Source of the DNA: a virus
Taxonomy: Duplodnaviria > Caudoviricetes
IMG/VR virus record: IMGVR_UViG_3300037337_000202
Coordinates: 1-52,642 of that record
Strand: one strand, 5' to 3'
DNA: 52,642 nucleotides
Positions 1-14,509 of this stretch are shown piece by piece. The notes beneath the pieces were generated by a model, which made no database searches, was not told the origin of the DNA, and worked only from the letters and a program-made list of their open reading frames with translations. The position numbers were made by a program, and so were the translations under genes. Each line of letters opens with the position of its first letter. Position 1 is the first letter of the stretch.

Positions 1-52
1 GACGGCCCGCTTAGACGGTGGGAGGCTGCAAGTTCGAATCTTGCTACTCAGA
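1..52 (+). tRNA. 3' part of a tRNA truncated by the window edge; anticodon unclear (loop TTAGACG)
   Basis: CCCGC/GTGGG stem; T arm GCAAG-TTCGAAT-CTTGC. Confidence 0.6.
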
Positions 53-397
53 CAGAAAACTTTAAACATCAAAACCAACCAATCTCCCAAAATGTTTTAC
101 TTTTATTACTAGATGTGTTATAATAAACACATACCAAATAAGGAATTTATGAAAAGTTCAAATAATTGAAACAATATAATCAGTGAAAACAGCAACGAGA
201 GCTGGACGAACACTCTAAAAATCGTGCAATGGGCGTACAGTAGGAAGGAGACTCCTTTTGTGGAGTTGAATAAATCTGGTCAGGGTTCGACCCTGACATA
301 GAATGATCATTGGAAGATATGATCAGTCTATTCTAAAATGTACCAGAACCGACATGGGGTGCAGCACCCGCGGCTTGTACATTTTAGAATAGAATTT

Positions 398-487
398 GGT
401 TCCCATCCCCGCTAGCAGTCTGTAAAACTGCCGTCTAAAAATAAGTGGGTGGTTGGACAAGAGGATCGTAACCTCGGGGGACCACCA
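398..487 (+). tRNA. tRNA-Tyr(GTA), atypical: no D arm, long variable region
   Basis: GGTTCCC/GGGGACC acceptor, GCAGT-CTGTAAA-ACTGC, ACCA end. Confidence 0.7.
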
Positions 488-493
488 AATTAT

Positions 494-568
494 ATCGCGT
501 TCGACTTCGGGTGAGGTCAGCAGCCTTTCACGCTGCGTAGACGGGTTCGAGCCCCGTACGCGATGCCA
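494..568 (+). tRNA. tRNA-Glu(TTC)
   Basis: GCAGC-CTTTCAC-GCTGC, TTCGA loop, CCA. Confidence 0.9.
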
Positions 569-573
569 AATAT

Positions 574-651
574 GCCCTCGTAACCCAATTGGTATGAGGT
601 ACTTCGCTTAGAACGAAGGTCGTGCAGGTTCGAATCCAGCCGAGGGTACCA
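574..651 (+). tRNA. tRNA-Leu(TAG) with short variable arm
   Basis: CTTCG-CTTAGAA-CGAAG, CCA. Confidence 0.85.
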
Positions 652-740
652 ACTAAAAGACAAAGATCCAGTAAGGATCTTATAACTCAGTAACCTGGTA
701 AAGGCGAACAGTACTTGAATCAACAAGGTCCAAAATTTAT

Positions 741-823
741 GCGATTGTGGTGGAATAAGGTATACACACCAGACTCAAAATCTGACGTCTTCGGGCATAT
801 CGGTTCGATCCCGATCAGTCGCA
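741..823 (+). tRNA. tRNA-Leu(CAA), no encoded CCA
   Basis: CAGA-CTCAAAA-TCTG, variable arm GTCTTCGGGC. Confidence 0.85.
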
Positions 824-846
824 CATCTCATTCGAAGTTCGAACCT

Positions 847-854
847 TATAAATA
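847..854 (+). promoter_or_regulatory. T4-type late promoter
   Basis: TATAAATA just upstream of the endonuclease ORF. Confidence 0.7.
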
Positions 855-859
855 AGTAC

Positions 860-1543
860 ATGGAGAAAACTATGTACTGTATAATTTATAAGATTACAAA
901 CAAAATAAATAGCAAGATATATATCGGGGCACATAAGACTAAAAATCTCGATGACGGATATATGGGCTCAGGAAAGTATCTAAAGAGTTCTATTAAAAAA
1001 CATGGCTTAGATAACTTTTATAAGGAAGTTCTCTTTGTTTTTGAGACTGTAGAATCAATGTATGCTAAAGAAGCAGAACTAGTTAATGAAGAGTTCTTGG
1101 CTGAAGCCAATACATACAATCTAAAGCTTGGTGGTCAAGGAGGTTGGGGATATGCAAACCTAAATTACTCTTATGATACTAGAGTTAGAGCCGCAGATGC
1201 CGCTAATTTAGTCATAGGTGAAAAATACCAGTCCGACCCAATATTCAAAGAAAAAATGAGTAAGATGGCGACTGATCGGAATAATAAAAGAGTTAGAAAT
1301 GGTGAAAAACTATTTGGCGATAAGCGCCATACATTCAAAGGAATCAGTCATTCCTCTATATCAAAAAAAATTATTGGAGAAAAGGCCGCGATAAGCCAAC
1401 TTGGCGCAGGTAATTCCCAATTTGGGACAATGTGGATAACCAATGGTATCCATAGCATGAAAATTAAGAATAATTGTGATATTCCAATTGGATATCATAA
1501 GGGTAGAAAAATGAAAATTTTAGCCGCAGAATCCGATCAGTAG
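860..1543 (+). CDS. Seg-like GIY-YIG homing endonuclease inside the tRNA array
   Basis: IIYKITNKINSKIYIG...YMGSG...YNL motif; C-terminal WITNG/GYHKGR module. Confidence 0.9.
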   Translation: MEKTMYCIIYKITNKINSKIYIGAHKTKNLDDGYMGSGKYLKSSIKKHGLDNFYKEVLFVFETVESMYAKEAELVNEEFLAEANTYNLKLGGQGGWGYANLNYSYDTRVRAADAANLVIGEKYQSDPIFKEKMSKMATDRNNKRVRNGEKLFGDKRHTFKGISHSSISKKIIGEKAAISQLGAGNSQFGTMWITNGIHSMKIKNNCDIPIGYHKGRKMKILAAESDQ

Positions 1544-1556
1544 AAACTGATTTAAT

Positions 1557-1630
1557 CAGAGTATGGGATAAAAGTAGTCCTCTAGTTTTGGAAACTAGAA
1601 GCCCAGGGGCGGTACCTGGTACTCTGACCA
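1557..1630 (+). tRNA. tRNA-Pro(TGG)
   Basis: CTAGT-TTTGGAA-ACTAG, CCA. Confidence 0.85.
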
Positions 1631-1647
1631 ATTTAAGAATGTTTTGC

Positions 1648-1723
1648 TCCGCAGAATCCGAGCATGGCGCATGGACGTGACTGTTAATCACTGACTAGTC
1701 TGGTTCGATCCCAGAGTGCGGAG
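1648..1723 (+). tRNA. tRNA-Asn(GTT), no CCA, extended acceptor duplex
   Basis: GTGA-CTGTTAA-TCAC; T arm TCTGG-TTCGATC-CCAGA. Confidence 0.8.
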
Positions 1724-1753
1724 CAAAACATTCTAAACCTAGAGAACTTAGGT

Positions 1754-1824
1754 GTGACGTTATCATAAAAGTAATGACCTGGACTGTGAATCCGGTTAAA
1801 CGGGAGCGTTACCCGTACGTCACC
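1754..1824 (+). tRNA. tRNA-His(GTG)
   Basis: CTGGA-CTGTGAA-TCCGG; GTGACGT/ACGTCAC acceptor. Confidence 0.8.
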
Positions 1825-1846
1825 CCTAAGTTTTTTATCAATTACA

Positions 1847-1917
1847 ACATGACCTGAAATGTTTTCGGACTGACTCTAGTGAGTTGGAGTAGGTGGTTCG
1901 ATTCCACCCAGGTGTAC
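1847..1917 (+). ncRNA. tRNA-like element with perfect T arm and non-canonical anticodon arm
   Basis: GGTGG-TTCGATT-CCACC; ACCTG/CAGGT; hairpin TGACTC-TAGT-GAGTTG. Confidence 0.5.
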
Positions 1918-1923
1918 TTTTTT

Positions 1924-1998
1924 GCCTTGTAAGTGTTGGTGATTACATTTCTGACTTCCACTCAGACGTATCCGGTTTGATTCCGGAACAAGGCTCCA
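1924..1998 (+). tRNA. tRNA-Gly(TCC)
   Basis: TCTGA-CTTCCAC-TCAGA, TCCA end. Confidence 0.9.
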
Positions 1999-2017
1999 TT
2001 TATACATTATCAACTTC

Positions 2018-2099
2018 GCCGGATTCGCCTATTGAGATGGCAACTGTTTTGTAAGCAGTCGAGAAATCAGAGGGTGTTTGATTCACCCATCCGGCACCA
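2018..2099 (+). tRNA. tRNA-Thr(TGT)
   Basis: ACTGT-TTTGTAA-GCAGT, CCA. Confidence 0.85.
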
Positions 2100-2104
2100 T
2101 TTTT

Positions 2105-2179
2105 AATCCGTTGGCCGAGAAGTTAAGGCATTGGTCTGCAAAACCAATTAGATCGGGGCGGTTCCGATACGGATTTCCA
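2105..2179 (+). tRNA. tRNA-Cys(GCA)
   Basis: TTGGT-CTGCAAA-ACCAA, TCCA end. Confidence 0.9.
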
Positions 2180-2186
2180 TTAATAA

Positions 2187-2266
2187 GCGAATAGGGACTG
2201 CATGGTGTGGTCGCTTGCCTGTCACGCAAGATATTCAGAGGGGATCGTTACCCCTTATTCGCGCCA
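2187..2266 (+). tRNA. tRNA-Asp(GTC)
   Basis: CTTGC-CTGTCAC-GCAAG, GCCA end. Confidence 0.9.
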
Positions 2267-2270
2267 ATTT

Positions 2271-2346
2271 GCCGCTTCAGCTAATCAGGTGAAAGCGTCG
2301 GTCTGAAGAACCGAAGAGACTGGTTCGATACCAGTAGGCGGCACCA
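2271..2346 (+). tRNA. tRNA-Phe(GAA)
   Basis: TCGGT-CTGAAGA-ACCGA, CCA. Confidence 0.9.
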
Positions 2347-2416
2347 ACTTTTTATAGATATTCTACATGGCGCCATGGCCAGAATGTTAACATGGTTATC
2401 TATAAAATTCATTTAT

Positions 2417-2491
2417 GCCTGGTAGTCCGAATAGTGAGGGAGCGTTTTGATAAAGCGTTTGAAGTAGGAGCATAACCTACACCAGGTACCA
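2417..2491 (+). tRNA. tRNA-Ile(GAT)
   Basis: GCGTT-TTGATAA-AGCGT, CCA. Confidence 0.85.
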
Positions 2492-2497
2492 ATTTTT

Positions 2498-2571
2498 GGG
2501 ATTGTAACTTAAAGGTAAAGTAACGGACTTTTAATCCGTAGAAGAAGGGTCAGTACCTTCCAGTCCCACCA
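2498..2571 (+). tRNA. tRNA-Lys(TTT)
   Basis: ACGGA-CTTTTAA-TCCGT, CCA. Confidence 0.9.
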
Positions 2572-2578
2572 AAAACAT

Positions 2579-2655
2579 GTCGTATGTAGCTCAGCGGCCA
2601 AGAGCAGCCCAAGTGTGGGAAGGTCCCCAGGTTCGAATCCTGGCATACGACTCCA
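2579..2655 (+). tRNA. tRNA-like gene with 8-bp acceptor and collapsed anticodon arm; identity undetermined
   Basis: GTCGTATG/CATACGAC, canonical D and T arms, CCCA-AGTG-TGGG, TCCA end. Confidence 0.65.
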
Positions 2656-2662
2656 AATTTAT

Positions 2663-2737
2663 ACATCACGATTGTGAAAGCAGCATGTAGGATTCCAAAT
2701 CCTTACGGACGGGGAGCGTTACCTCGGTGGTGTGCCA
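2663..2737 (+). tRNA. tRNA-Trp(CCA)
   Basis: AGGA-TTCCAAA-TCCT, GCCA end. Confidence 0.85.
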
Positions 2738-2749
2738 TATATAGATTAT

Positions 2750-2824
2750 TGCGGGAAAATCGATTGGAGCAGATACTACTCTTTGAAAGTAGGTGATTGG
2801 GTTCGATTCCCAAGCCCGCTGCCA
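2750..2824 (+). tRNA. tRNA-Gln(TTG)
   Basis: CTACT-CTTTGAA-AGTAG, GCCA end. Confidence 0.85.
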
Positions 2825-2998
2825 TCCTTAACTTAGAACAAATATGATTGAAGTACTTACAAAATTTAACCCATACGCTTTTATTAATCCTACTACTGAA
2901 GAGGAATATTACAATTTGGTGAATGAAGCCATTCGAATGATCGATGAACTAAATACCGACTTAGATGAGACAACTAACTATCTCGATTCTGGCTTATA

Positions 2999-3580
2999 AT
3001 GATGCTTGATAACACTATTAAATCGCAACTAAAAACGTATCTAAAATTGCTTCGCCAACCAATTAAGCTGGTTGCATCCTCAAATGCGACCGTAGAAATG
3101 CTTGAGTTTCTAGACGATATTGCCAGCTTGTCTAATAAGATTACAGTTGAGAATTATTCCCAGGATAAAAGCCTGGCGTCATTTACGATCCAATCAGAGG
3201 CTGTAACATCGGGTGTTCGCTTTGCGGCACTTCCAGTAGGCCAACTTTTAACACCAATGATTTTGGCCATGCTTTGGACTGGTGGCCACCCGCCGGTATA
3301 TTCTGAAAAACTTATTCAGAATATTAAAGACATTAACCTAGACCACGACTTCGATATCTATGTCAGTCAATCCTGCCCAAATGGCCCAAGTGTAATCGAA
3401 GCGCTAGCCTTAATGTGTGTTTTAAATCCCAAGATTACAGTAACTGTAATCGATGGTGCATTATTCACAGAAGATATCGAATTCTTAGGTATCGAAGTTG
3501 TGCCTACAATCCATCATAACAACGACTTTTTTACCCAGGGGCGTATGACTCTAGAAGAAATTTTAGCCAAATTGAACTGA
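2999..3580 (+). CDS. ahpF: AhpF N-terminal double-thioredoxin domain, stand-alone (no flavoprotein part)
   Basis: MLDNTIKSQLKTYL, GVRFAALPVG, LAMLWTGGHP, IDGALF, FTQGRMTLEEILAKL. Confidence 0.85.
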   Translation: MMLDNTIKSQLKTYLKLLRQPIKLVASSNATVEMLEFLDDIASLSNKITVENYSQDKSLASFTIQSEAVTSGVRFAALPVGQLLTPMILAMLWTGGHPPVYSEKLIQNIKDINLDHDFDIYVSQSCPNGPSVIEALALMCVLNPKITVTVIDGALFTEDIEFLGIEVVPTIHHNNDFFTQGRMTLEEILAKLN

Positions 3581-3770
3581 TTGTTGCTTTGGGTAGCGAC
3601 CTGCATTAACTGGTTTTCACCGTTGAGAGTCCTCACAAATGAATTGTAAATAATAAATGAATGATACGGCTCTAGATGAACTTGAATTTCAAGTTCATCT
3701 AGAAATAGGTGATAGTTCGAGTCTACTACTTTCCTCACTTTAAATAAAAATCTAGGCTTAATTTTTAACT

Positions 3771-3950
3771 ATGACCAAATTTAAAGTTTATAATAAGTTG
3801 CATCTTACGGATCAACAATTAGCAAGCGCTTGTTTAACATTTAATCACAGCTTTGGACTCAGGACTGAGGAGCAGCAAAAATCTTTGCCCGCCATGGCGC
3901 GAAGCTGGGAAGATGCCTTCCACAAAGAGCTTGAGAACCCAAGAGACTAA
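3771..3950 (+). CDS. hypothetical protein (59 aa)
   Basis: Open frame from ATG 3771 to a TAA abutting the next promoter. Confidence 0.5.
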   Translation: MTKFKVYNKLHLTDQQLASACLTFNHSFGLRTEEQQKSLPAMARSWEDAFHKELENPRD

Positions 3951-4143
3951 GTTTTACTTTTATTCTGGTCTGTGGTATAATATATACATACCAAGAGGAT
4001 TAGAACAGTACCCCAGGATTCATTAGATGATACACAGAGACATAGCTCCAGTAAAACGGAGAAGCATGGTGGTTATCGTGTATCATCTAATAAATCTTGA
4101 AAGCTAAGTTTTACTTTTATTCTGGTCTGTGTTATAATAACTT

Positions 4144-4353
4144 ATGAATACAAAAAACCTCACCCAAGAACAGCGTAAAATTATTTCAACCATGGAACAC
4201 GCAATGTTCAAAATGTCTTCGGCTATCGAATCTCTTGATGAACTCTCCAAAATGGGTGCTCTGAGCTCCCATATGTTCTCGACCAAGAAAATGCTCGAAG
4301 ATGCCGTCGAACAGCTTGAGTTCGACCAGCGTGAAATTTGGAATCAAGTCTGA
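4144..4353 (+). CDS. hypothetical early protein, apparently leaderless
   Basis: ATG directly after the promoter (TATAATAACTTATG). Confidence 0.7.
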   Translation: MNTKNLTQEQRKIISTMEHAMFKMSSAIESLDELSKMGALSSHMFSTKKMLEDAVEQLEFDQREIWNQV

Positions 4354-4740
4354 TTTTACTTTTATTGTTGGATATGTTATAATAAACACATACCAAGGGG
4401 ATTGAAACAGAATTCGTTATTTTTAAGAAGATTCGATCAGCAACCGTTTCGCACTGCTTTCGGTCAATGTTTTAGTGAATTTTCTTAAAAATGGTATATA
4501 GAGACATAGCTCCCGTAAGACGGAGAAGCATGGTGGTTATCATGTATCATCTTATGAATCCCGACAATATGCTCTACAAAGGCACACGATAGGGAATTCA
4601 TTTGCGAGGATTCTCAGACGCCAAGGGACCACACCTAAACGTGTTATCCTGCGGCGCTTTGGGGAGGGGAACAGTCAATGCGGTCCCCACCGTCTGGCTT
4701 ATATTTGAGAATCCTCACAAATGAATTGTAAATAATATAT

Positions 4741-4834
4741 GGAGGCGCAACCCAACTGGCGATGGGACTGCACTTGAAATGCAACGAGCTGCTAATACCA
4801 GCCTTGGGAGTTCGACTCTACCCCGCCTCCGCCA
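4741..4834 (+). tRNA. tRNA-Ser(TGA)
   Basis: TGCA-CTTGAAA-TGCA, long variable arm, GCCA end. Confidence 0.9.
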
Positions 4835-4840
4835 AAATTC

Positions 4841-4926
4841 GGACAAACTGAGAGATTGCCTGTTGCTGGCATGAGAGCACCATAGCATGGCGCAAAATGA
4901 AGGTTTAATTCCTTCATTGTCCACCA
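4841..4926 (+). ncRNA. tRNA-like element with CCA end and irregular core
   Basis: GGACAA/TTGTCC-ACCA; TGAAGG-TTTAATT-CCTTCA. Confidence 0.55.
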
Positions 4927-4934
4927 AAATTAAG

Positions 4935-5505
4935 GCAATAAGACGCGAACGGCAAGACCGTCGTATGAGCCCTAAGATATAGAACATGACAGAAGGTGCT
5001 TGGCTGAGAAGTTAGACCAAAATTAGTTTCCAAAGCCTGTATCCAGGTCCCGCAACATGGGAAACGTTGCTCTGCGACTCCGGCAATCTGTAAGGGGAGG
5101 GTGCAGTTTCAGCCTGAAGTGAACTCGCAGGATAACCAACCTGCTCATAAAAAAAGGATATGCTGATGGGTAAGCCATAAGTCGTTCGTGTATGGAAAGC
5201 AAGGGCGCAGTAATTTAAAAAGTTTTTGTCTGGTAGCAGTCGCTGGCCAGCCCTGAGATATACGGATCGTCTATCGGTATATCTAACATAGGGTCAGTTC
5301 TCCCAAGAATAAGATGACGTGAGGGGAGAATCCAGACAAATTTATTATGGACAATGACCGGAAATACAATCTGTGCGGCCCGAGTGCGCAATTTATTGCT
5401 GGACAGCATAGGCTTAGAGGTTCTATACCATGAGTATAGAGGTTGACATGGGTATACACTCGACTTCGTTTTATTTGTGATAGAAGATGATAGTACACCC
5501 CACCA
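4935..5505 (+). ncRNA. Unidentified structured non-coding RNA(s)
   Basis: No convincing ORF; long-range stems 4943-4953/5181-5191 and 5225-5233/5332-5340. Confidence 0.5.
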
Positions 5506-5510
5506 AATTT

Positions 5511-5584
5511 GCTCTTATAGTTCAATGATAGAATGCCGCTGTGGTATGGCGGATATCAAGGTTTGATTCCTTGTGGGAGCACCA
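5511..5584 (+). tRNA. tRNA-Thr(GGT)
   Basis: CCGCT-GTGGTAT-GGCGG, CCA. Confidence 0.8.
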
Positions 5585-5589
5585 TTTTT

Positions 5590-5666
5590 GCGCCTTTACG
5601 ACAACTGGAATAGTCTCATAGTCTTCGAAACTGTGAATGTGGGTTCAAATCCCATGGGGCGCATCA
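5590..5666 (+). tRNA. tRNA-Arg(TCG)
   Basis: ATAGT-CTTCGAA-ACTGT; TTCAAAT loop. Confidence 0.85.
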
Positions 5667-5672
5667 TAATAT

Positions 5673-5751
5673 CCGTCGATATGCCGCTTGCCTTCTAAGC
5701 AAGAGAAAGCTAACTGGATTCATGCAGGTTCGACTCCTGCTCGACGGGCCA
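5673..5751 (+). tRNA. tRNA-Arg(TCT), D-arm-less, copy 1
   Basis: CCGTCGA/TCGACGG, CTTGC-CTTCTAA-GCAAG, GCAGG-TTCGACT-CCTGC, GCCA end. Confidence 0.75.
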
Positions 5752-5767
5752 CGCCATTTTTATTTTT

Positions 5768-5846
5768 GCCCAGGTACGCTATTTGGTACCGCGGACTGAT
5801 TCAGAATCAGTTGTTTTTGTGGGTTCGACTCCCATCCTGGGTACCA
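5768..5846 (+). tRNA. tRNA-Leu(CAG) with short variable arm
   Basis: ACTGA-TTCAGAA-TCAGT, CCA. Confidence 0.85.
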
Positions 5847-5852
5847 TTCTTT

Positions 5853-5928
5853 AGTGGCATAGCATAGCGGCTAATGCGGTTTCTTCATATGTAACAGATC
5901 GTGGGTTCGAGTCCCACTGCCACTACCA
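5853..5928 (+). tRNA. tRNA-Met or Ile2 (CAT)
   Basis: GTTTC-TTCATAT-GTAAC, CCA. Confidence 0.85.
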
Positions 5929-5929
5929 A

Positions 5930-6029
5930 TTTTCACTGTAAGGCTTGGTGCCCGGATCGCGCATCCGAAGATACGTGTTCGATTCCGTACAACTGGACGT
6001 TCTGGGTTCGAGTCCCGGTGCAGTGAAAA
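5930..6029 (+). ncRNA. tRNA-like RNA with two T-loops
   Basis: TTTTCACTGTA/TGCAGTGAAAA closing stem; TTCGATT and TTCGAGT hairpins. Confidence 0.55.
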
Positions 6030-6036
6030 TTTTTCT

Positions 6037-6124
6037 GGAGAGTAAATCAGTCGGGGACTGAGACTGTCTGCTAAACAGTGCGACCTGGCAACAGGTTTCG
6101 GTTCGAGTCCGATGCTCTCCTCCA
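6037..6124 (+). tRNA. tRNA-Ser(GCT)
   Basis: ACTGT-CTGCTAA-ACAGT, long variable arm, CCA. Confidence 0.9.
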
Positions 6125-6228
6125 AACTTTACTTTTATTCCTAGATGTGATATAATAACTTATCAACACGGAAATATCATGACTGAACTTGTTAAGCCGG
6201 TTATTCTCGTTATTATTATTGGTAATCA

Positions 6229-7008
6229 ATGAACTGGTTAATAATTGGTAGTGTTGCTGTTAAGCATTGGTTTCCAGATGCTCGTGTACCAACTGATATT
6301 GATATTCTTACTCCAGTAAAGATAACTGGTAACGTAAGTAATATCTGTGTGGTAGATTCACAGTGGCATAATGCAGCAGAATACCTAATCAGTATCAATA
6401 AAGACTCTACATTTGCTGACCCTGATGTGTTGTATACCTTAAAAGTATCACATGCTCAATGGAACATCAAATGGGATAAAACCATGTACGACATTGAATT
6501 CTTAAAAAGAAAAGGTTGTACTCTTATTCCTGACTTGCATTCTAAACTGGTTAAGGTTTGGACTGAGACTCATGGCAAAAAGCATGTTAATATGTCAAAG
6601 CCAATGATTGACTTTTTCAGTGACGACGTAAAAAGAGAATATGACCACGAAAAGTTACATGAGTTAGTCGCATTTTATGATCGGCCTATTCATGAACGAT
6701 TGAGGGAAGATCACAATACGGCATGGTGTTCAAAGGAGTTATTCTTTAAAATGACCCTCGAAGATCAATGTCTCTGTGTATTAGAGGAAATGTTAGTAAC
6801 TGCAATTGAACGAAGTAAGCTCACAGTAAATAGTAAGATGAGCGAAAAACTAGGTGCAATGTCGAAGGGTTACTTTCAGCTGGCAACATCGATGACAACC
6901 GGTTGGTTCGCTCTATTCTTAATTGAGCACCGACAAACTTTATTATTTGAAAAGAGAAACACATGGTTAACAAACTTGAATACAGCACTGAAACACTTGT
7001 CCAGCTAG
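6229..7008 (+). CDS. Phage nucleotidyltransferase-like protein
   Basis: IIGS...DIDI (GS/DxD) motif; LYTLKVSH; YDHEKLHE. Confidence 0.6.
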   Translation: MNWLIIGSVAVKHWFPDARVPTDIDILTPVKITGNVSNICVVDSQWHNAAEYLISINKDSTFADPDVLYTLKVSHAQWNIKWDKTMYDIEFLKRKGCTLIPDLHSKLVKVWTETHGKKHVNMSKPMIDFFSDDVKREYDHEKLHELVAFYDRPIHERLREDHNTAWCSKELFFKMTLEDQCLCVLEEMLVTAIERSKLTVNSKMSEKLGAMSKGYFQLATSMTTGWFALFLIEHRQTLLFEKRNTWLTNLNTALKHLSS

Positions 7009-7370
7009 CACTTGACGATCCCGGACTTTTTCTTGAAACCTTTGTCAAATTGCTTGATCCAATAGTTTACGCCACCGATCATTACGGGTCAGATAATTAT
7101 CATGGCTACCTGGAACAATTGGAGACCGATCAATCATTTGCTGGAATCTATGTTAAACTAGTTCATTCCGAAGGTGATTGTGAAGGCGGCGGAGATCATT
7201 CTGAGCACATTTGGTCAGTCGGTTTTAATGGAGTACCACCATTTGCTTTTATTAAGATTACTGGCTTTTACAGTTCTCATAATGGAACAGAATGGGATGA
7301 TCTAAGTAGTGCCGTTCTAGTTTATCCACGACAAGTAATGGTCACCCAATATTTTAAAGATAAAGAATGA
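6963..7370 (+). CDS. hypothetical protein
   Basis: ORF; GFYSSHNGTEW motif shared with the next ORF. Confidence 0.6.
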   Translation: MVNKLEYSTETLVQLALDDPGLFLETFVKLLDPIVYATDHYGSDNYHGYLEQLETDQSFAGIYVKLVHSEGDCEGGGDHSEHIWSVGFNGVPPFAFIKITGFYSSHNGTEWDDLSSAVLVYPRQVMVTQYFKDKE

Positions 7371-7710
7371 CTTTAAAGACGATCTACTAGGTACAGTAAT
7401 TAAACTCATCGCAGAAGATAATGAGCGCGACTTTCCCTTTGGCCCCAGTGTTAATAGAATCGAGGGTCTGAGCCTAAACTGTGTGTATGATGAAAGTGCG
7501 GGTGATGGTAATGAATGCGTTCGAGTAACAGAAATTTGTGTTGATGATGCATTTATTGGACATATCAGAACCATTGGTACTTACAGCTCATGGGGTAATA
7601 GCACCTGGTACCCAGAAGAAACTACATTGGTTAATTTGGTATCAACGATAGTTAACGTCTGGGTAAATGCCGATGGGTCTGAACATCATAAACACAAAAT
7701 GAATTTTTAA
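7367..7710 (+). CDS. hypothetical protein, paralogue of the upstream ORF, with a -1 frame break after MTLK
   Basis: ATG 7367 frame stops at 7390; the -1 frame is open from before 7375 to 7710. Confidence 0.5.
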
Positions 7711-7721
7711 ATAACAAATAT

Positions 7722-7800
7722 GCGCGAGTATGCCGCTTGCCTTCTAAGCAAGAGAAAGCTAACTGGACTCATACAGGTTCGAATCCTGTCTCGCGCGCCA
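7722..7800 (+). tRNA. tRNA-Arg(TCT), D-arm-less, copy 2
   Basis: GCGCGAG/CTCGCGC acceptor; core nearly identical to 5673-5751; GCCA end. Confidence 0.75.
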
Positions 7801-7817
7801 TCTATTACGGAGCATAT

Positions 7818-8366
7818 ATGCAAATTCTAGGTCTTGATGTGGCGGGCCATCCACGAAAATGGCTATCAGTAGAAGATGCTATCACATATCATGCTAAGGA
7901 TCAGGTCGCATGGTCATTAGGTGATATTGTTTTCAGGGCTCGAGGTGGATATCAGAGTTCTGGTAGACAGAGTATTATTGAAACCGCATCGATAATATCT
8001 ATTCGCTCTACTAAGTTTGATGTTAGAGATAGAAAAGTTCCGGTGAGTAACCAGACACTATTTTCTCGAGATCGTTGGAATTGTGCTTACTGCGGGCTGA
8101 CATTCAAGGCTAGTCAATTATCTAGGGACCATATTATCCCAAAAAGTAGGGGTGGACTTGATGTATGGCAAAATATTATTTGTTCCTGCAAGTGGTGTAA
8201 TAACAAGAAGGATAATAGGACTCCAGAGGAAGCAGACATGCCATTGCTGTTCCTACCCTATTTGCCGGCATTCGGAGAAAAGATTATTTTAGAGGGTAGG
8301 AATATTCTTGGCGATCAACTAGACTTTCTGAAAAAAACTCTACCGAAAAATTCTCGCTGCCACTAA
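7818..8366 (+). CDS. HNH endonuclease (McrA-like zinc-binding type)
   Basis: RDRWNCAYCG, DHIIPKSRGG, CSCKWCNNKK; start moved past the tRNA to ATG 7818 (GGAG SD). Confidence 0.85.
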   Translation: MQILGLDVAGHPRKWLSVEDAITYHAKDQVAWSLGDIVFRARGGYQSSGRQSIIETASIISIRSTKFDVRDRKVPVSNQTLFSRDRWNCAYCGLTFKASQLSRDHIIPKSRGGLDVWQNIICSCKWCNNKKDNRTPEEADMPLLFLPYLPAFGEKIILEGRNILGDQLDFLKKTLPKNSRCH

Positions 8367-8369
8367 CAC

Positions 8370-8392
8370 AAGGTCCCTCCGGGGACCTTTTT
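8370..8392 (+). terminator. Intrinsic terminator
   Basis: AAGGTCCC-TCCG-GGGACCTT followed by a T run. Confidence 0.8.
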
Positions 8393-8447
8393 AGTTTTTA
8401 CTTTTATCCTGGGTCGTGTTATAATAATTTATCAACAAGGAAACATC

Positions 8448-14432: not shown

Positions 14433-14509
14433 CTCGCGTTAGCTCAGCTAGATAGAGCAAAATTCTCCTAAAGTTTAGGTCACTGGTGCAAATCCAGTAC
14501 GCGAGACCA
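14433..14509 (+). tRNA. tRNA-Arg(CCT)
   Basis: AAATT-CTCCTAA-AGTTT, canonical D arm, CCA. Confidence 0.9.

What the first reader, a model, noticed from the sequence alone, without database searches (positions are those of the whole stretch)
398..7800. D-arm-less tRNAs with a D-loop-like motif moved in front of the T arm
Seen: tRNA-Arg(TCT) at 5673 and 7722 have only 7 nt (TATGCCG) between acceptor and anticodon stems. A 20-nt segment containing AGCTAACTGGA, which looks like a normal Arg D loop, follows the anticodon arm. The two copies have different acceptor and T stems that both still pair fully, i.e. compensatory change rather than decay. tRNA-Tyr at 398 has the same layout (10-nt connector, GGTTGGAC before the T arm), and the 5930 element has CAACTGGAC at the same place. 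Established: D-arm-less tRNAs are mainly known from mitochondria. Inference: a rewired tRNA fold whose elbow GG comes from the 3' side, acting as a nuclease-resistant tRNA or a decoy.
Basis: partly seen in the sequence, partly recalled or inferred. Interest (0 to 1): 0.78.

Follow-up and report, generated by a model that had tools for sequence, protein, structure and literature searches.

The report
Phage tRNAs with a swapped-strand D arm
Two arginine tRNA genes in this phage belong to a large, apparently undescribed family of phage tRNAs whose D arm is rebuilt from pieces on either side of the anticodon arm, so the chain follows a different path while the signatures of the normal tRNA core are kept.

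Summary
The two tRNA-Arg(UCU) genes at 5673-5751 and 7722-7800 are as described: 7 nt between the acceptor and anticodon stems, and AACTGGA after the anticodon arm. They are not D-armless. In 64 distinct homologues, connector nucleotides pair with the nucleotides just before T-AACTGGA. Two pairs are paired in 64/64 with four Watson-Crick types each, and the third in 41/64. RNAalifold finds this helix independently. The D stem therefore encloses the anticodon arm, with segments 10-21 and 22-45 swapped.

Core signatures persist:
- A14 is present in 81/81.
- The 15/48 pair covaries: A-U 49, G-C 27, other 5 of 81.
- Position 20 follows isotype: A in Arg 10/10 and 34/34; U in Ile 70/71 and 16/17.

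The family covers 239 IMG/VR loci and 218 distinct sequences, all with Arg or Ile/CAU anticodons. It also occurs, unannotated, in cultured Streptomyces and Microbacterium phages. ARAGORN misses the window copies, while Rfam's tRNA model passes them. Ten literature searches found no description.

These are most likely working AGA decoders. Expression and charging are untested. The Tyr element (398) and the 5930 element are not shown to be members.

The parts
5673..5751 (+). Permuted-D tRNA-Arg(UCU), copy 1, with encoded CCA (5749-5751) and discriminator G (5748)
   Evidence: Sequence; Rfam tRNA 38.1 bits; model R1 78.2 bits
5673..5679 (+). Copy 1 acceptor 5' strand; pairs 7/7 with 5741-5747
5680..5682 (+). 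Copy 1: U8, A9 and the unpaired T assigned to position 22
   Evidence: TA is present in 64/64 homologues although the search pattern did not fix it; 22/13 is T/T in 53/64
5683..5685 (+). Copy 1 D-stem strand GCC (spatial positions 23-25); pairs with 5708-5710 as G-C, C-G and a C.A mismatch
   Evidence: Family covariation; the window class GCC/AGC has 11 distinct members
5687..5703 (+). Copy 1 anticodon arm: 5-bp stem, loop CTTCTAA, anticodon TCT at 5694-5696
5704..5707 (+). Copy 1 bulge AGAA between the anticodon stem and the returning D-stem strand (A opposite G26)
   Evidence: Bulge of 2-5 nt in 215 parsed sequences; N+GAAA in 129 of them
5708..5711 (+). Copy 1 returning D-stem strand AGC (positions 10-12) plus T13
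5712..5723 (+). Copy 1 D-loop equivalent AACTGGA (A14, A15, G18, G19, A20) and linker TTCAT ending in U48
   Evidence: A14 81/81, 15/48 covariation and A20 in Arg
5724..5740 (+). Copy 1 T arm: GCAGG / TTCGACT / CCTGC
7722..7800 (+). Permuted-D tRNA-Arg(UCU), copy 2. Acceptor 7722-7728 with 7790-7796; U8A9 7729-7730; D-stem strands 7732-7734 and 7757-7759; anticodon 7743-7745; D-loop equivalent 7761-7767; T arm 7773-7789; G 7797; CCA 7798-7800
   Evidence: Sequence; Rfam tRNA 42.4 bits; R1 80.3 bits
398..487 (+). tRNA-Tyr(GUA)-like element with no 5' D hairpin. The predicted fold pairs its connector (405-413) with 444-453, 3' of the anticodon arm. 4-bp T stem, T loop ATCGTAA, A73, CCA. Not shown to belong to the Arg/Ile family
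   Evidence: MFE fold; 3 near-identical copies with 0 pairs changed on both sides; no hit by Rfam or R1
5930..6030 (+). tRNA-like element with an 11-bp terminal helix, one T arm, a second T-arm-like hairpin and CAACTGGAC. No 7-nt anticodon loop and no CCA. Probably a chimera or pseudogene
   Evidence: Sequence; fold; relaxed ARAGORN gives a 2-nt 'anticodon'; no Rfam or R1 hit
1..6124 (+). Same-strand tRNA array that holds copy 1. It has canonical Arg(TCG) at 5589-5665; Arg(CCT) lies at 14433-14509. There is no canonical Arg(TCT) in the window

Best explanation
Both loci encode elongator tRNA-Arg(UCU) molecules with a strand-permuted D arm. The chain runs: acceptor 5' strand, U8-A9, then a strand that occupies the place of positions 22-25, N26, the anticodon arm, a 2-5 nt bulge, then a strand that occupies positions 10-13. 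This continues directly into a normal D loop (A14 A15 C U G18 G19 A20), a short linker ending in U48, the T arm and the acceptor 3' strand.

Relative to a standard tRNA, segments 10-21 and 22-45 have changed places. The short D helix therefore encloses the anticodon arm and can stack on it as usual, while the D loop still reaches the T loop.

Shown: the helix and the conservation or covariation of core positions.

Inferred:
- the molecule folds into the standard L shape;
- it is charged by the host ArgRS through A20, C35, U36 and G73;
- it reads AGA codons for the phage;
- the layout arose by a partial tandem duplication followed by loss of the outer halves.

Why phages keep this layout is not known.
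For: 1. New helix. The 64 distinct homologues were found with a pattern that did not constrain these positions, and positions were defined only by distance from invariant anchors. Pair 23-12 is paired in 64/64 (CG 38, UA 12, GC 11, AU 3). Pair 24-11 is paired in 64/64 (CG 27, GC 27, UA 8, AU 2). Pair 25-10 is paired in 41/64. None of 5000 shuffles reached the observed total, and the off-register combinations tested pair in at most 50/64. On a gap-free alignment of 20 sequences, all 3 pairs change on both sides and 100% of cells pair, against 40-50% when partners are slid. RNAalifold predicts the helix unprompted. In 215 pooled sequences, 215/215, 215/215 and 179/215 pair, with 24 distinct triplet combinations.

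2. Canonical core, in a set where the D loop and position 48 were unconstrained. A14 is present in 81/81. The 15/48 pair is A-U 49, G-C 27, other 5, with 0 of 10000 shuffles matching. Within the UAU anticodon alone it is 37 A-U and 24 G-C with no exception. UA at positions 8-9 is present in 64/64 where it was not fixed.

3. Identity elements follow the anticodon. The nucleotide after GG is A in Arg (10/10 and 34/34) and U in Ile/CAU (70/71 and 16/17). The discriminator is A in 71/71 Ile. This matches the bacterial identity sets in Table 1 of PMC9976931, read as passages: Arg A20, C35, U/G36, A/G73; Ile U20, A73.

4. Slot filling. Of 78 loci holding a permuted Arg(TCT), 5 also hold a canonical one. 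In MAG arrays of 25 and 35 tRNAs it sits in line and is the only UCU. The window has no canonical TCT. AGA is the most used Arg codon, 95 of 392, in 41 ORFs I picked from the 81 listed.

5. All other helices covary: acceptor 99.5% and T stem 98.8% of cells paired in 82 sequences.

6. The family separates cleanly from canonical tRNAs under model R1. All but one member score 46 bits or more (one scores 34.7), against at most 29.6 bits for canonical tRNAs.
Against: - There is no evidence of expression, processing, aminoacylation or ribosome use.
- The helix is only 2-3 bp. The window's own class (GCC/AGC) is the weakest, with two Watson-Crick pairs plus a C.A mismatch, and it shows no variation within the class.
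- No 3D model was built, so the chain-path argument is geometric reasoning from textbook tRNA structure.
- Single-sequence folding does not predict the 2-bp helix for the window copies.
- The sequences were gathered with patterns that fix some positions, and related sequences inflate shuffle statistics.
- Model R1 was seeded on Arg, so other isotypes could have been missed.
- The conserved U22/U13 mismatch and the GAAA bulge are unexplained.
Confidence: 0.75

Rival explanations
1. It has the same permuted fold but is not a translating tRNA. Instead it acts as a decoy or sponge for a tRNA-targeting host defence nuclease, or for another tRNA-binding factor.
For: Standard finders miss it and the layout is unusual. 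The family is strongly enriched in viral contigs: 78 true hits there against 8 in 596 Gb of prokaryote genomes. 5 of 78 loci keep a canonical Arg(TCT) as well.
Against: Synthetase identity elements track the anticodon. The anticodon loops keep U33 and A37, with CU..AA in 152 of 215. The window copies encode CCA. In most arrays it is the only UCU species. A decoy would not need to stay chargeable for two different amino acids.
Confidence: 0.15
2. It is a truly D-armless tRNA of the mitochondrial kind: the connector is unpaired and the GG-bearing stretch is a floppy long variable loop.
For: The single-sequence folds of the window copies do not form the connector helix. In the window class the helix has only two Watson-Crick pairs.
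Against: Two pairs are kept in 215/215 with 4-5 pair types each. Slid controls drop to 40-50% paired. RNAalifold recovers the helix.
Confidence: 0.03
3. It is a precursor that is cut and rejoined into a standard tRNA, like the circularly permuted tRNA genes of algae and archaea.
For: Permuted tRNA genes exist (PMC3978253 and PMC3218864; search listing and abstracts only).
Against: The acceptor 5' and 3' strands are already at the two ends, followed by CCA. Circularisation and a single cut therefore cannot restore the standard order. I saw no bulge-helix-bulge motif by eye, but I ran no search for one.
Confidence: 0.02
4. It is a decayed tRNA pseudogene, or a chance resemblance.
For: ARAGORN rejects it.
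Against: 218 distinct sequences keep all four helices through compensatory change. The chance matches to the same pattern are clearly different, with 0-5 of 7 acceptor pairs.
Confidence: 0.01

Closest known systems
Canonical bacterial and phage tRNA-Arg(UCU) (Rfam RF00005, class I tRNA)
   Same: 7-bp acceptor stem, 5-bp anticodon stem with loop CUUCUAA, 5-bp T stem with UUCRA loop, U8, A14, G18G19, A20, U48, discriminator G/A and CCA. It scores above Rfam's gathering score.
   Different: There is no hairpin between positions 9 and 26. The two D-stem strands lie on either side of the anticodon arm, and the D loop follows the second strand and leads into the T arm.
D-arm-lacking mitochondrial tRNAs (mammalian mt-tRNA-Ser(AGY), nematode mt-tRNAs; review PMC7609411, passages read)
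   Same: A short connector instead of a hairpin between the acceptor and anticodon stems.
   Different: According to the passages read, those tRNAs lack the D stem or the whole D arm and rely on a flexible fold. Here a D helix, A14, G18G19 and the 15/48 pair are all retained.
Circularly permuted tRNA genes of Cyanidioschyzon merolae and some archaea (PMC3978253, PMC3218864; listing and abstracts only)
   Same: The order of tRNA segments in the gene differs from the standard.
   Different: In those genes the 3' half precedes the 5' half, and the abstracts say processing goes through a circular RNA (that this yields a standard mature tRNA is recalled). Here the ends are normal and the swap is internal, so the mature RNA itself would carry the new connectivity.
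[quoted passage not shown]
   Same: A long stretch (about 20 nt) between the anticodon arm and the T arm.
   Different: That stretch is not a self-contained hairpin. It supplies one D-stem strand and the D loop. RNAalifold adds a 2-bp pairing inside it that never varies.
tRNAs with novel cloverleaf structures (8/4 and 9/3 allo-tRNAs, some in phages; PMC5389517, passages read)
   Same: Non-standard tRNA architectures found in metagenomes and phages.
   Different: Those change the split between acceptor and T stem lengths but keep the order of arms. The window tRNAs keep 7/5 and change the order.

Membership tests
tRNA (Rfam RF00005) | Score at or above the curated gathering score (29 bits) over the full model | tested here: met
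   38.1 bits (5673-5748) and 42.4 bits (7722-7797), model positions 1-71
tRNA (Rfam RF00005) | 7-bp acceptor stem, anticodon arm with a 7-nt loop (U33, purine 37), and T arm with a UUCRA loop | tested here: met
   Both copies pair 7/7, 5/5 and 5/5. Family-wide, 99.5% of acceptor cells, 91.9% of anticodon-stem cells and 98.8% of T-stem cells are paired.
tRNA (Rfam RF00005) | D hairpin between positions 9 and 26 | tested here: not met
   The 15 D-arm model positions are replaced by 4 nt. ARAGORN finds neither copy in three modes.
tRNA (functional definition) | Stable processed RNA that is aminoacylated and used by the ribosome | not testable with these tools
Bacterial tRNA-Arg identity | A20, C35, U/G36, A/G73 (PMC9976931 Table 1) | tested here: met
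   Window copies: A after GG, anticodon UCU, discriminator G. Family: A20 in Arg 10/10 and 34/34. Whether ArgRS can reach A20 in this fold was not tested.
D-arm-lacking (mitochondrial-type) tRNA | Connector with no pairing partner; no D stem; D-loop/T-loop contacts lost | tested here: not met
   The connector pairs with the 3' segment in 64/64, 64/64 and 41/64. GG, A14 and the 15/48 covariation are retained.
Circularly permuted tRNA gene | 3' half upstream of 5' half, with the acceptor ends internal to the gene | tested here: not met
   The acceptor strands are at the two ends, followed by CCA.
Permuted-D tRNA family defined here (model R1) | R1 score well above canonical tRNAs; U8A9 plus a 5-nt connector; 23-12 and 24-11 paired; T13-A14 start of the D loop after the anticodon arm | tested here: met
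   Window copies score 78.2 and 80.3 bits against at most 29.6 bits for canonical tRNAs; G-C and C-G pairs.
Permuted-D tRNA family defined here (model R1) | The same features, applied to the Tyr element (398-487) and the 5930 element | tested here: not met
   No R1 hit at E<=1 in the window other than the two Arg copies and two canonical Leu tRNAs. Tyr has A8 and G14, and no pair changes on both sides.

The most novel reading that the evidence does not exclude
This is a natural topological isomer of tRNA. It has the same L-shaped body but a different chain path, and it is fully active in charging and decoding. Phages keep it for their AGA (Arg) and AUA/AUC (Ile) decoders because the swapped connectivity hides these tRNAs from a factor that reads the 5' D-arm region. 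That factor could be a host defence nuclease, or the phage's own host-tRNA-degrading activity.
Probability: 0.25. Interest if true: 0.95.

Novelty: new variant of a known kind. Interest (0 to 1): 0.88.

Why it matters
The order of arms in the cloverleaf is treated as universal outside mitochondria. A family of more than two hundred sequences that swaps two internal segments, yet keeps the D helix, U8/A14, the 15/48 pair, G18G19 and the synthetase identity nucleotides, would show that the L shape can be reached by a second chain topology in nature.

It matters for four reasons:
- It gives a direct test of how ArgRS, IleRS, RNase P, modification enzymes, EF-Tu and the ribosome depend on shape rather than connectivity.
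- It exposes a blind spot in phage annotation. ARAGORN misses these genes. All five instances in three cultured phages are unannotated, and one overlaps a called CDS start.
- tRNA complements and codon-supply estimates for phages therefore undercount Arg(UCU) and Ile(UAU).
- It offers a new scaffold for engineered tRNAs.

Tried and rejected
- Similarity searches of 1-8400 (megablast) and 5500-8000 (blastn) against GenBank phages gave nothing useful: no match, and one 87-nt hit in Myxococcus phage Mx1.
- The exact 39-nt core was absent from viral contigs.
- BLAST with 79-80 nt tRNA queries was insensitive, with 4 and 5 records. Model R1 on whole records worked better.
- A structure-only scan for any tRNA with a short connector mostly re-parsed canonical tRNAs, taking the D arm for an anticodon arm. 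It added no isotype beyond Arg and Ile.
- The Tyr pattern scan gave 6 stretches: 2 real and near-identical, 4 chance.
- The three-sequence Tyr alignment carries no covariation signal; shuffles equal the observed value.
- No RNA holder was listed for 5400-8000. Nine DNA runs hold it.
- I considered and dropped a hairpin inside the variable stretch (GAG/YTC, seen by eye in the window copies). It is not conserved in the family, and RNAalifold does not predict it.
- Ten literature searches and find-mode reading of two papers on unusual tRNAs found no description of this layout. Supplements were not seen, subscription journals are not in the library, and tRNAscan-SE was not available.

Full report
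CONTEXT. The window is an entire IMG/VR virus record of 52,642 bp that CheckV rates about 22% complete. Its genes resemble those I recall from T4-like phages: two topoisomerase II subunits, a Dda-like helicase, SHMT, and GIY-YIG and HNH endonucleases. Bases 1-6124 form a dense same-strand tRNA array.

OBSERVATION. The order is a 7-bp acceptor stem, TATGCCG, an anticodon arm with loop CTTCTAA, 20 nt holding AGCTAACTGGA, a T arm, the acceptor 3' strand, G and CCA.
- ARAGORN misses both in default, relaxed and mitochondrial modes.
- Rfam's tRNA model hits both above its gathering score (38.1 and 42.4 bits against 29). It skips the 15 D-arm positions, where only 4 nt are present, and inserts 17 nt in the variable region.
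- The copies share an identical 39-nt core. They differ at 5 of 7 acceptor pairs and one T-stem pair, all compensated.

THE LAYOUT IS A FAMILY. A pattern tying the anticodon loop, AACTGGA and the T loop in this unusual order found 81 stretches in viral contigs.
- Of 67 distinct full-length sequences, including the two window copies, 64 have a paired acceptor stem (6-7 of 7) and T stem. The other 3 are chance matches.
- In 596 Gb of prokaryote genomes the same pattern found 24 stretches. Only 8 are real, all on MAG contigs. The other 16 have 0-5 acceptor pairs, which serves as an empirical chance control.

THE D STEM IS KEPT BUT PERMUTED. I defined positions only by distance from invariant anchors: the end of the acceptor stem, and the start of AACTGGA.
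- The second and third connector nucleotides after UA-N pair with the second and third nucleotides upstream of T-AACTGGA in 64/64 sequences each. Each pair shows four Watson-Crick types.
- The next pair is formed in 41/64. Two whole classes carry C.A (11 sequences, the window's class) or G.G (10 sequences).
- No shuffle in 5000 reached the observed total, and the off-register combinations tested pair in at most 50/64.
- On a gap-free 20-sequence alignment, the tool count gives 3 of 3 pairs with changes on both sides and 100% of cells paired, against 40-50% when partners are slid.
- RNAalifold predicts the helix without being told about it.
- Covariance model R1 separates the family from canonical tRNAs. 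All but one member score 46 bits or more (one scores 34.7); canonical tRNAs score at most 29.6. The window copies score 78.2 and 80.3 bits.
- On 82 model-aligned sequences the helix is 95.5% paired. That alignment leans towards the model's structure.

CHAIN PATH (inference from standard tRNA geometry).
- In a normal tRNA the D stem stacks on the anticodon stem. Strand 22-25 runs through 26 into 27-31, and strand 39-43 is continued, after 44-45, by 10-13, which leads into the D loop.
- In these RNAs the connector strand runs through one nucleotide into the anticodon stem, so it takes the place of 22-25.
- The strand after the anticodon arm is followed by T-A-A-C-U-G-G-A, so it takes the place of 10-13 plus 14-20.
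- Segments 10-21 and 22-45 have therefore swapped. Three backbone joins change: 9 to 22, 44/45 to 10, and 20/21 to 48. I judge each to link neighbours in the standard fold.
- A partial tandem duplication followed by loss of the outer halves would produce this order. That origin is inferred, not shown.

CORE AND IDENTITY SIGNATURES. A second scan fixed one D-stem class (CCC/GGG with a GAAA bulge) and left the anticodon, D loop and position 48 free. In this set:
- A14 is present in 81/81.
- The second D-loop nucleotide and the nucleotide before the T stem covary as the 15/48 pair: A-U 49, G-C 27, other 5, with 0 of 10000 shuffles matching. Among UAU sequences alone it is 37 and 24 with no exception.
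- The nucleotide after GG is A in 10/10 Arg and U in 70/71 Ile.
- The discriminator is A in 71/71 Ile.

A third scan, of the CGG/CCG class, gave 51 good distinct sequences: UCU 29, UAU 10, CAU 7 and CCU 5. Position 20 was A in 34/34 Arg and U in 16/17 Ile/CAU. These match the bacterial identity sets listed in PMC9976931 (passages read): Arg A20, C35, U/G36, A/G73; Ile U20, A73.

POOLED FAMILY.
- R1 hits give 218 distinct sequences from 249 sources, 239 of them IMG/VR loci.
- Anticodons: UCU 100, UAU 75, GAU 16, CCU 11, CAU 7, UCG 5, ACG 4.
- In 215 parsed sequences the two central pairs hold in 215/215 each, with 24 distinct triplet combinations.
- One contig carries all four Arg anticodons in this form.

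Caveats: each scan fixed some positions, R1 was seeded on Arg, and related sequences inflate shuffle statistics.

CULTURED PHAGES. R1 on whole GenBank records found five instances:
- Microbacterium phage Zooman: two (Arg ACG and Arg UCU).
- Streptomyces phage LilMartin: two (Ile GAU and Arg UCU).
- Streptomyces phage Coruscant: one (Ile GAU).

None is annotated as a tRNA. The Coruscant one overlaps the called start of an FtsK-like CDS. Streptomyces phages Moab and Patelgo gave the same BLAST hit but were not inspected.

FUNCTION.
- The permuted gene sits in line in tRNA arrays. Of 78 loci with a permuted Arg(UCU), 5 also hold a canonical one.
- In MAG arrays of 25 and 35 tRNAs it is the only UCU species.
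- The window has canonical Arg(UCG) and Arg(CCU) but no canonical UCU.
- AGA is the commonest Arg codon in the window, 95 of 392, in 41 ORFs that I chose by eye from the 81 listed.
- In one contig the canonical and permuted Arg(UCU) share nearly the same acceptor and T arms. The window's two copies share the inner domain but not the outer helices, which suggests modular exchange.

Expression and charging are untested.

TYR AND 5930.
- The Tyr(GUA) element has an acceptor stem, A73, CCA and a normal anticodon arm. Its predicted fold pairs the connector with a stretch 3' of the anticodon arm.
- It lacks U8 and A14, and it has a 4-bp T stem and an odd T loop.
- Only two near-identical relatives were found, and no pair changes on both sides. 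The topology is analogous, but membership is not shown.
- In the 5930 element I found no anticodon arm with a 7-nt loop by reading the sequence. It also has no CCA and no Rfam or R1 hit. It looks like a chimera or pseudogene.

NOVELTY. Ten full-text searches and find-mode reading of a paper and a review on non-canonical tRNAs found no description of this layout. Those were PMC5389517 and PMC7609411 (with no occurrence of 'phage' or 'permut').

VERDICT. This is a real, widespread phage tRNA architecture that I could not find in print. The secondary structure and core signatures are well supported. The function as a decoder is likely but inferred.

Noticed in passing
window 398-487, 1754-1826, 2187-2266, 2417-2491, 2663-2737; also seen in loci L022 and L072: Several tRNAs in the array have T loops of the form A-K-C-R-T-W-A (for example ATCGTTA, AGCGTTA, AGCATAA) instead of TTCRANN. 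Positions 54 and 58 look swapped (A54/U58). The same loop turns up in two unrelated viral loci.
   Followed up: no
window 860-1543 and 7818-8366: A GIY-YIG (SegE-like) endonuclease ORF sits inside the tRNA array, and an HNH endonuclease ORF starts 18 nt after Arg copy 2. These may be homing elements that move or duplicate tRNA genes.
   Followed up: partly
window about 4020-4090 and 4495-4560; also about 3626-3656 and 4706-4737: There are two pairs of near-repeats in the ORF-poor stretch between tRNA clusters: a roughly 60-nt element with internal complementarity, and a roughly 30-nt motif ending in ...tgtaaataata. Seen by eye. Rfam had no hit at E<=1.
   Followed up: no
window 4927-5510: About 580 nt between tRNAs has no ORF of 90 aa or more on the + strand and no Rfam hit at E<=1. 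It may be an unrecognised structured RNA or degraded tRNA genes.
   Followed up: no
window about 88-125, 3952-3990, 4105-4140, 4352-4385, 6124-6160: A repeated promoter-like motif (TTTACTTTTATT ... TATAATA) resembles what I recall of T4 early promoters. It flanks the tRNA clusters and small ORFs. Seen by eye; no scan was run.
   Followed up: no
L029 7152-7227 and 8031-8104: A permuted and a canonical tRNA-Arg(UCU) in the same viral contig share nearly identical acceptor and T arms but have different inner domains.
   Followed up: partly
L089, L095, L103, L108, L110 (prokaryote MAG contigs): These loci hold arrays of 15-35 tRNA genes within 8 kb, each with one permuted Arg(UCU) in line. They may be phage or prophage DNA binned into MAGs. 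In L089, L095 and L108 ARAGORN calls unusually long (92-93 nt) tRNA-Ile(tat) genes next to it.
   Followed up: partly
L121 (Streptomyces phage Coruscant MT711976, record 73025-73101): The unannotated permuted tRNA-Ile(GAU) overlaps the annotated start (73077) of the FtsK-like CDS. It lies just after a nucleotidyltransferase gene, as it does in LilMartin.
   Followed up: partly
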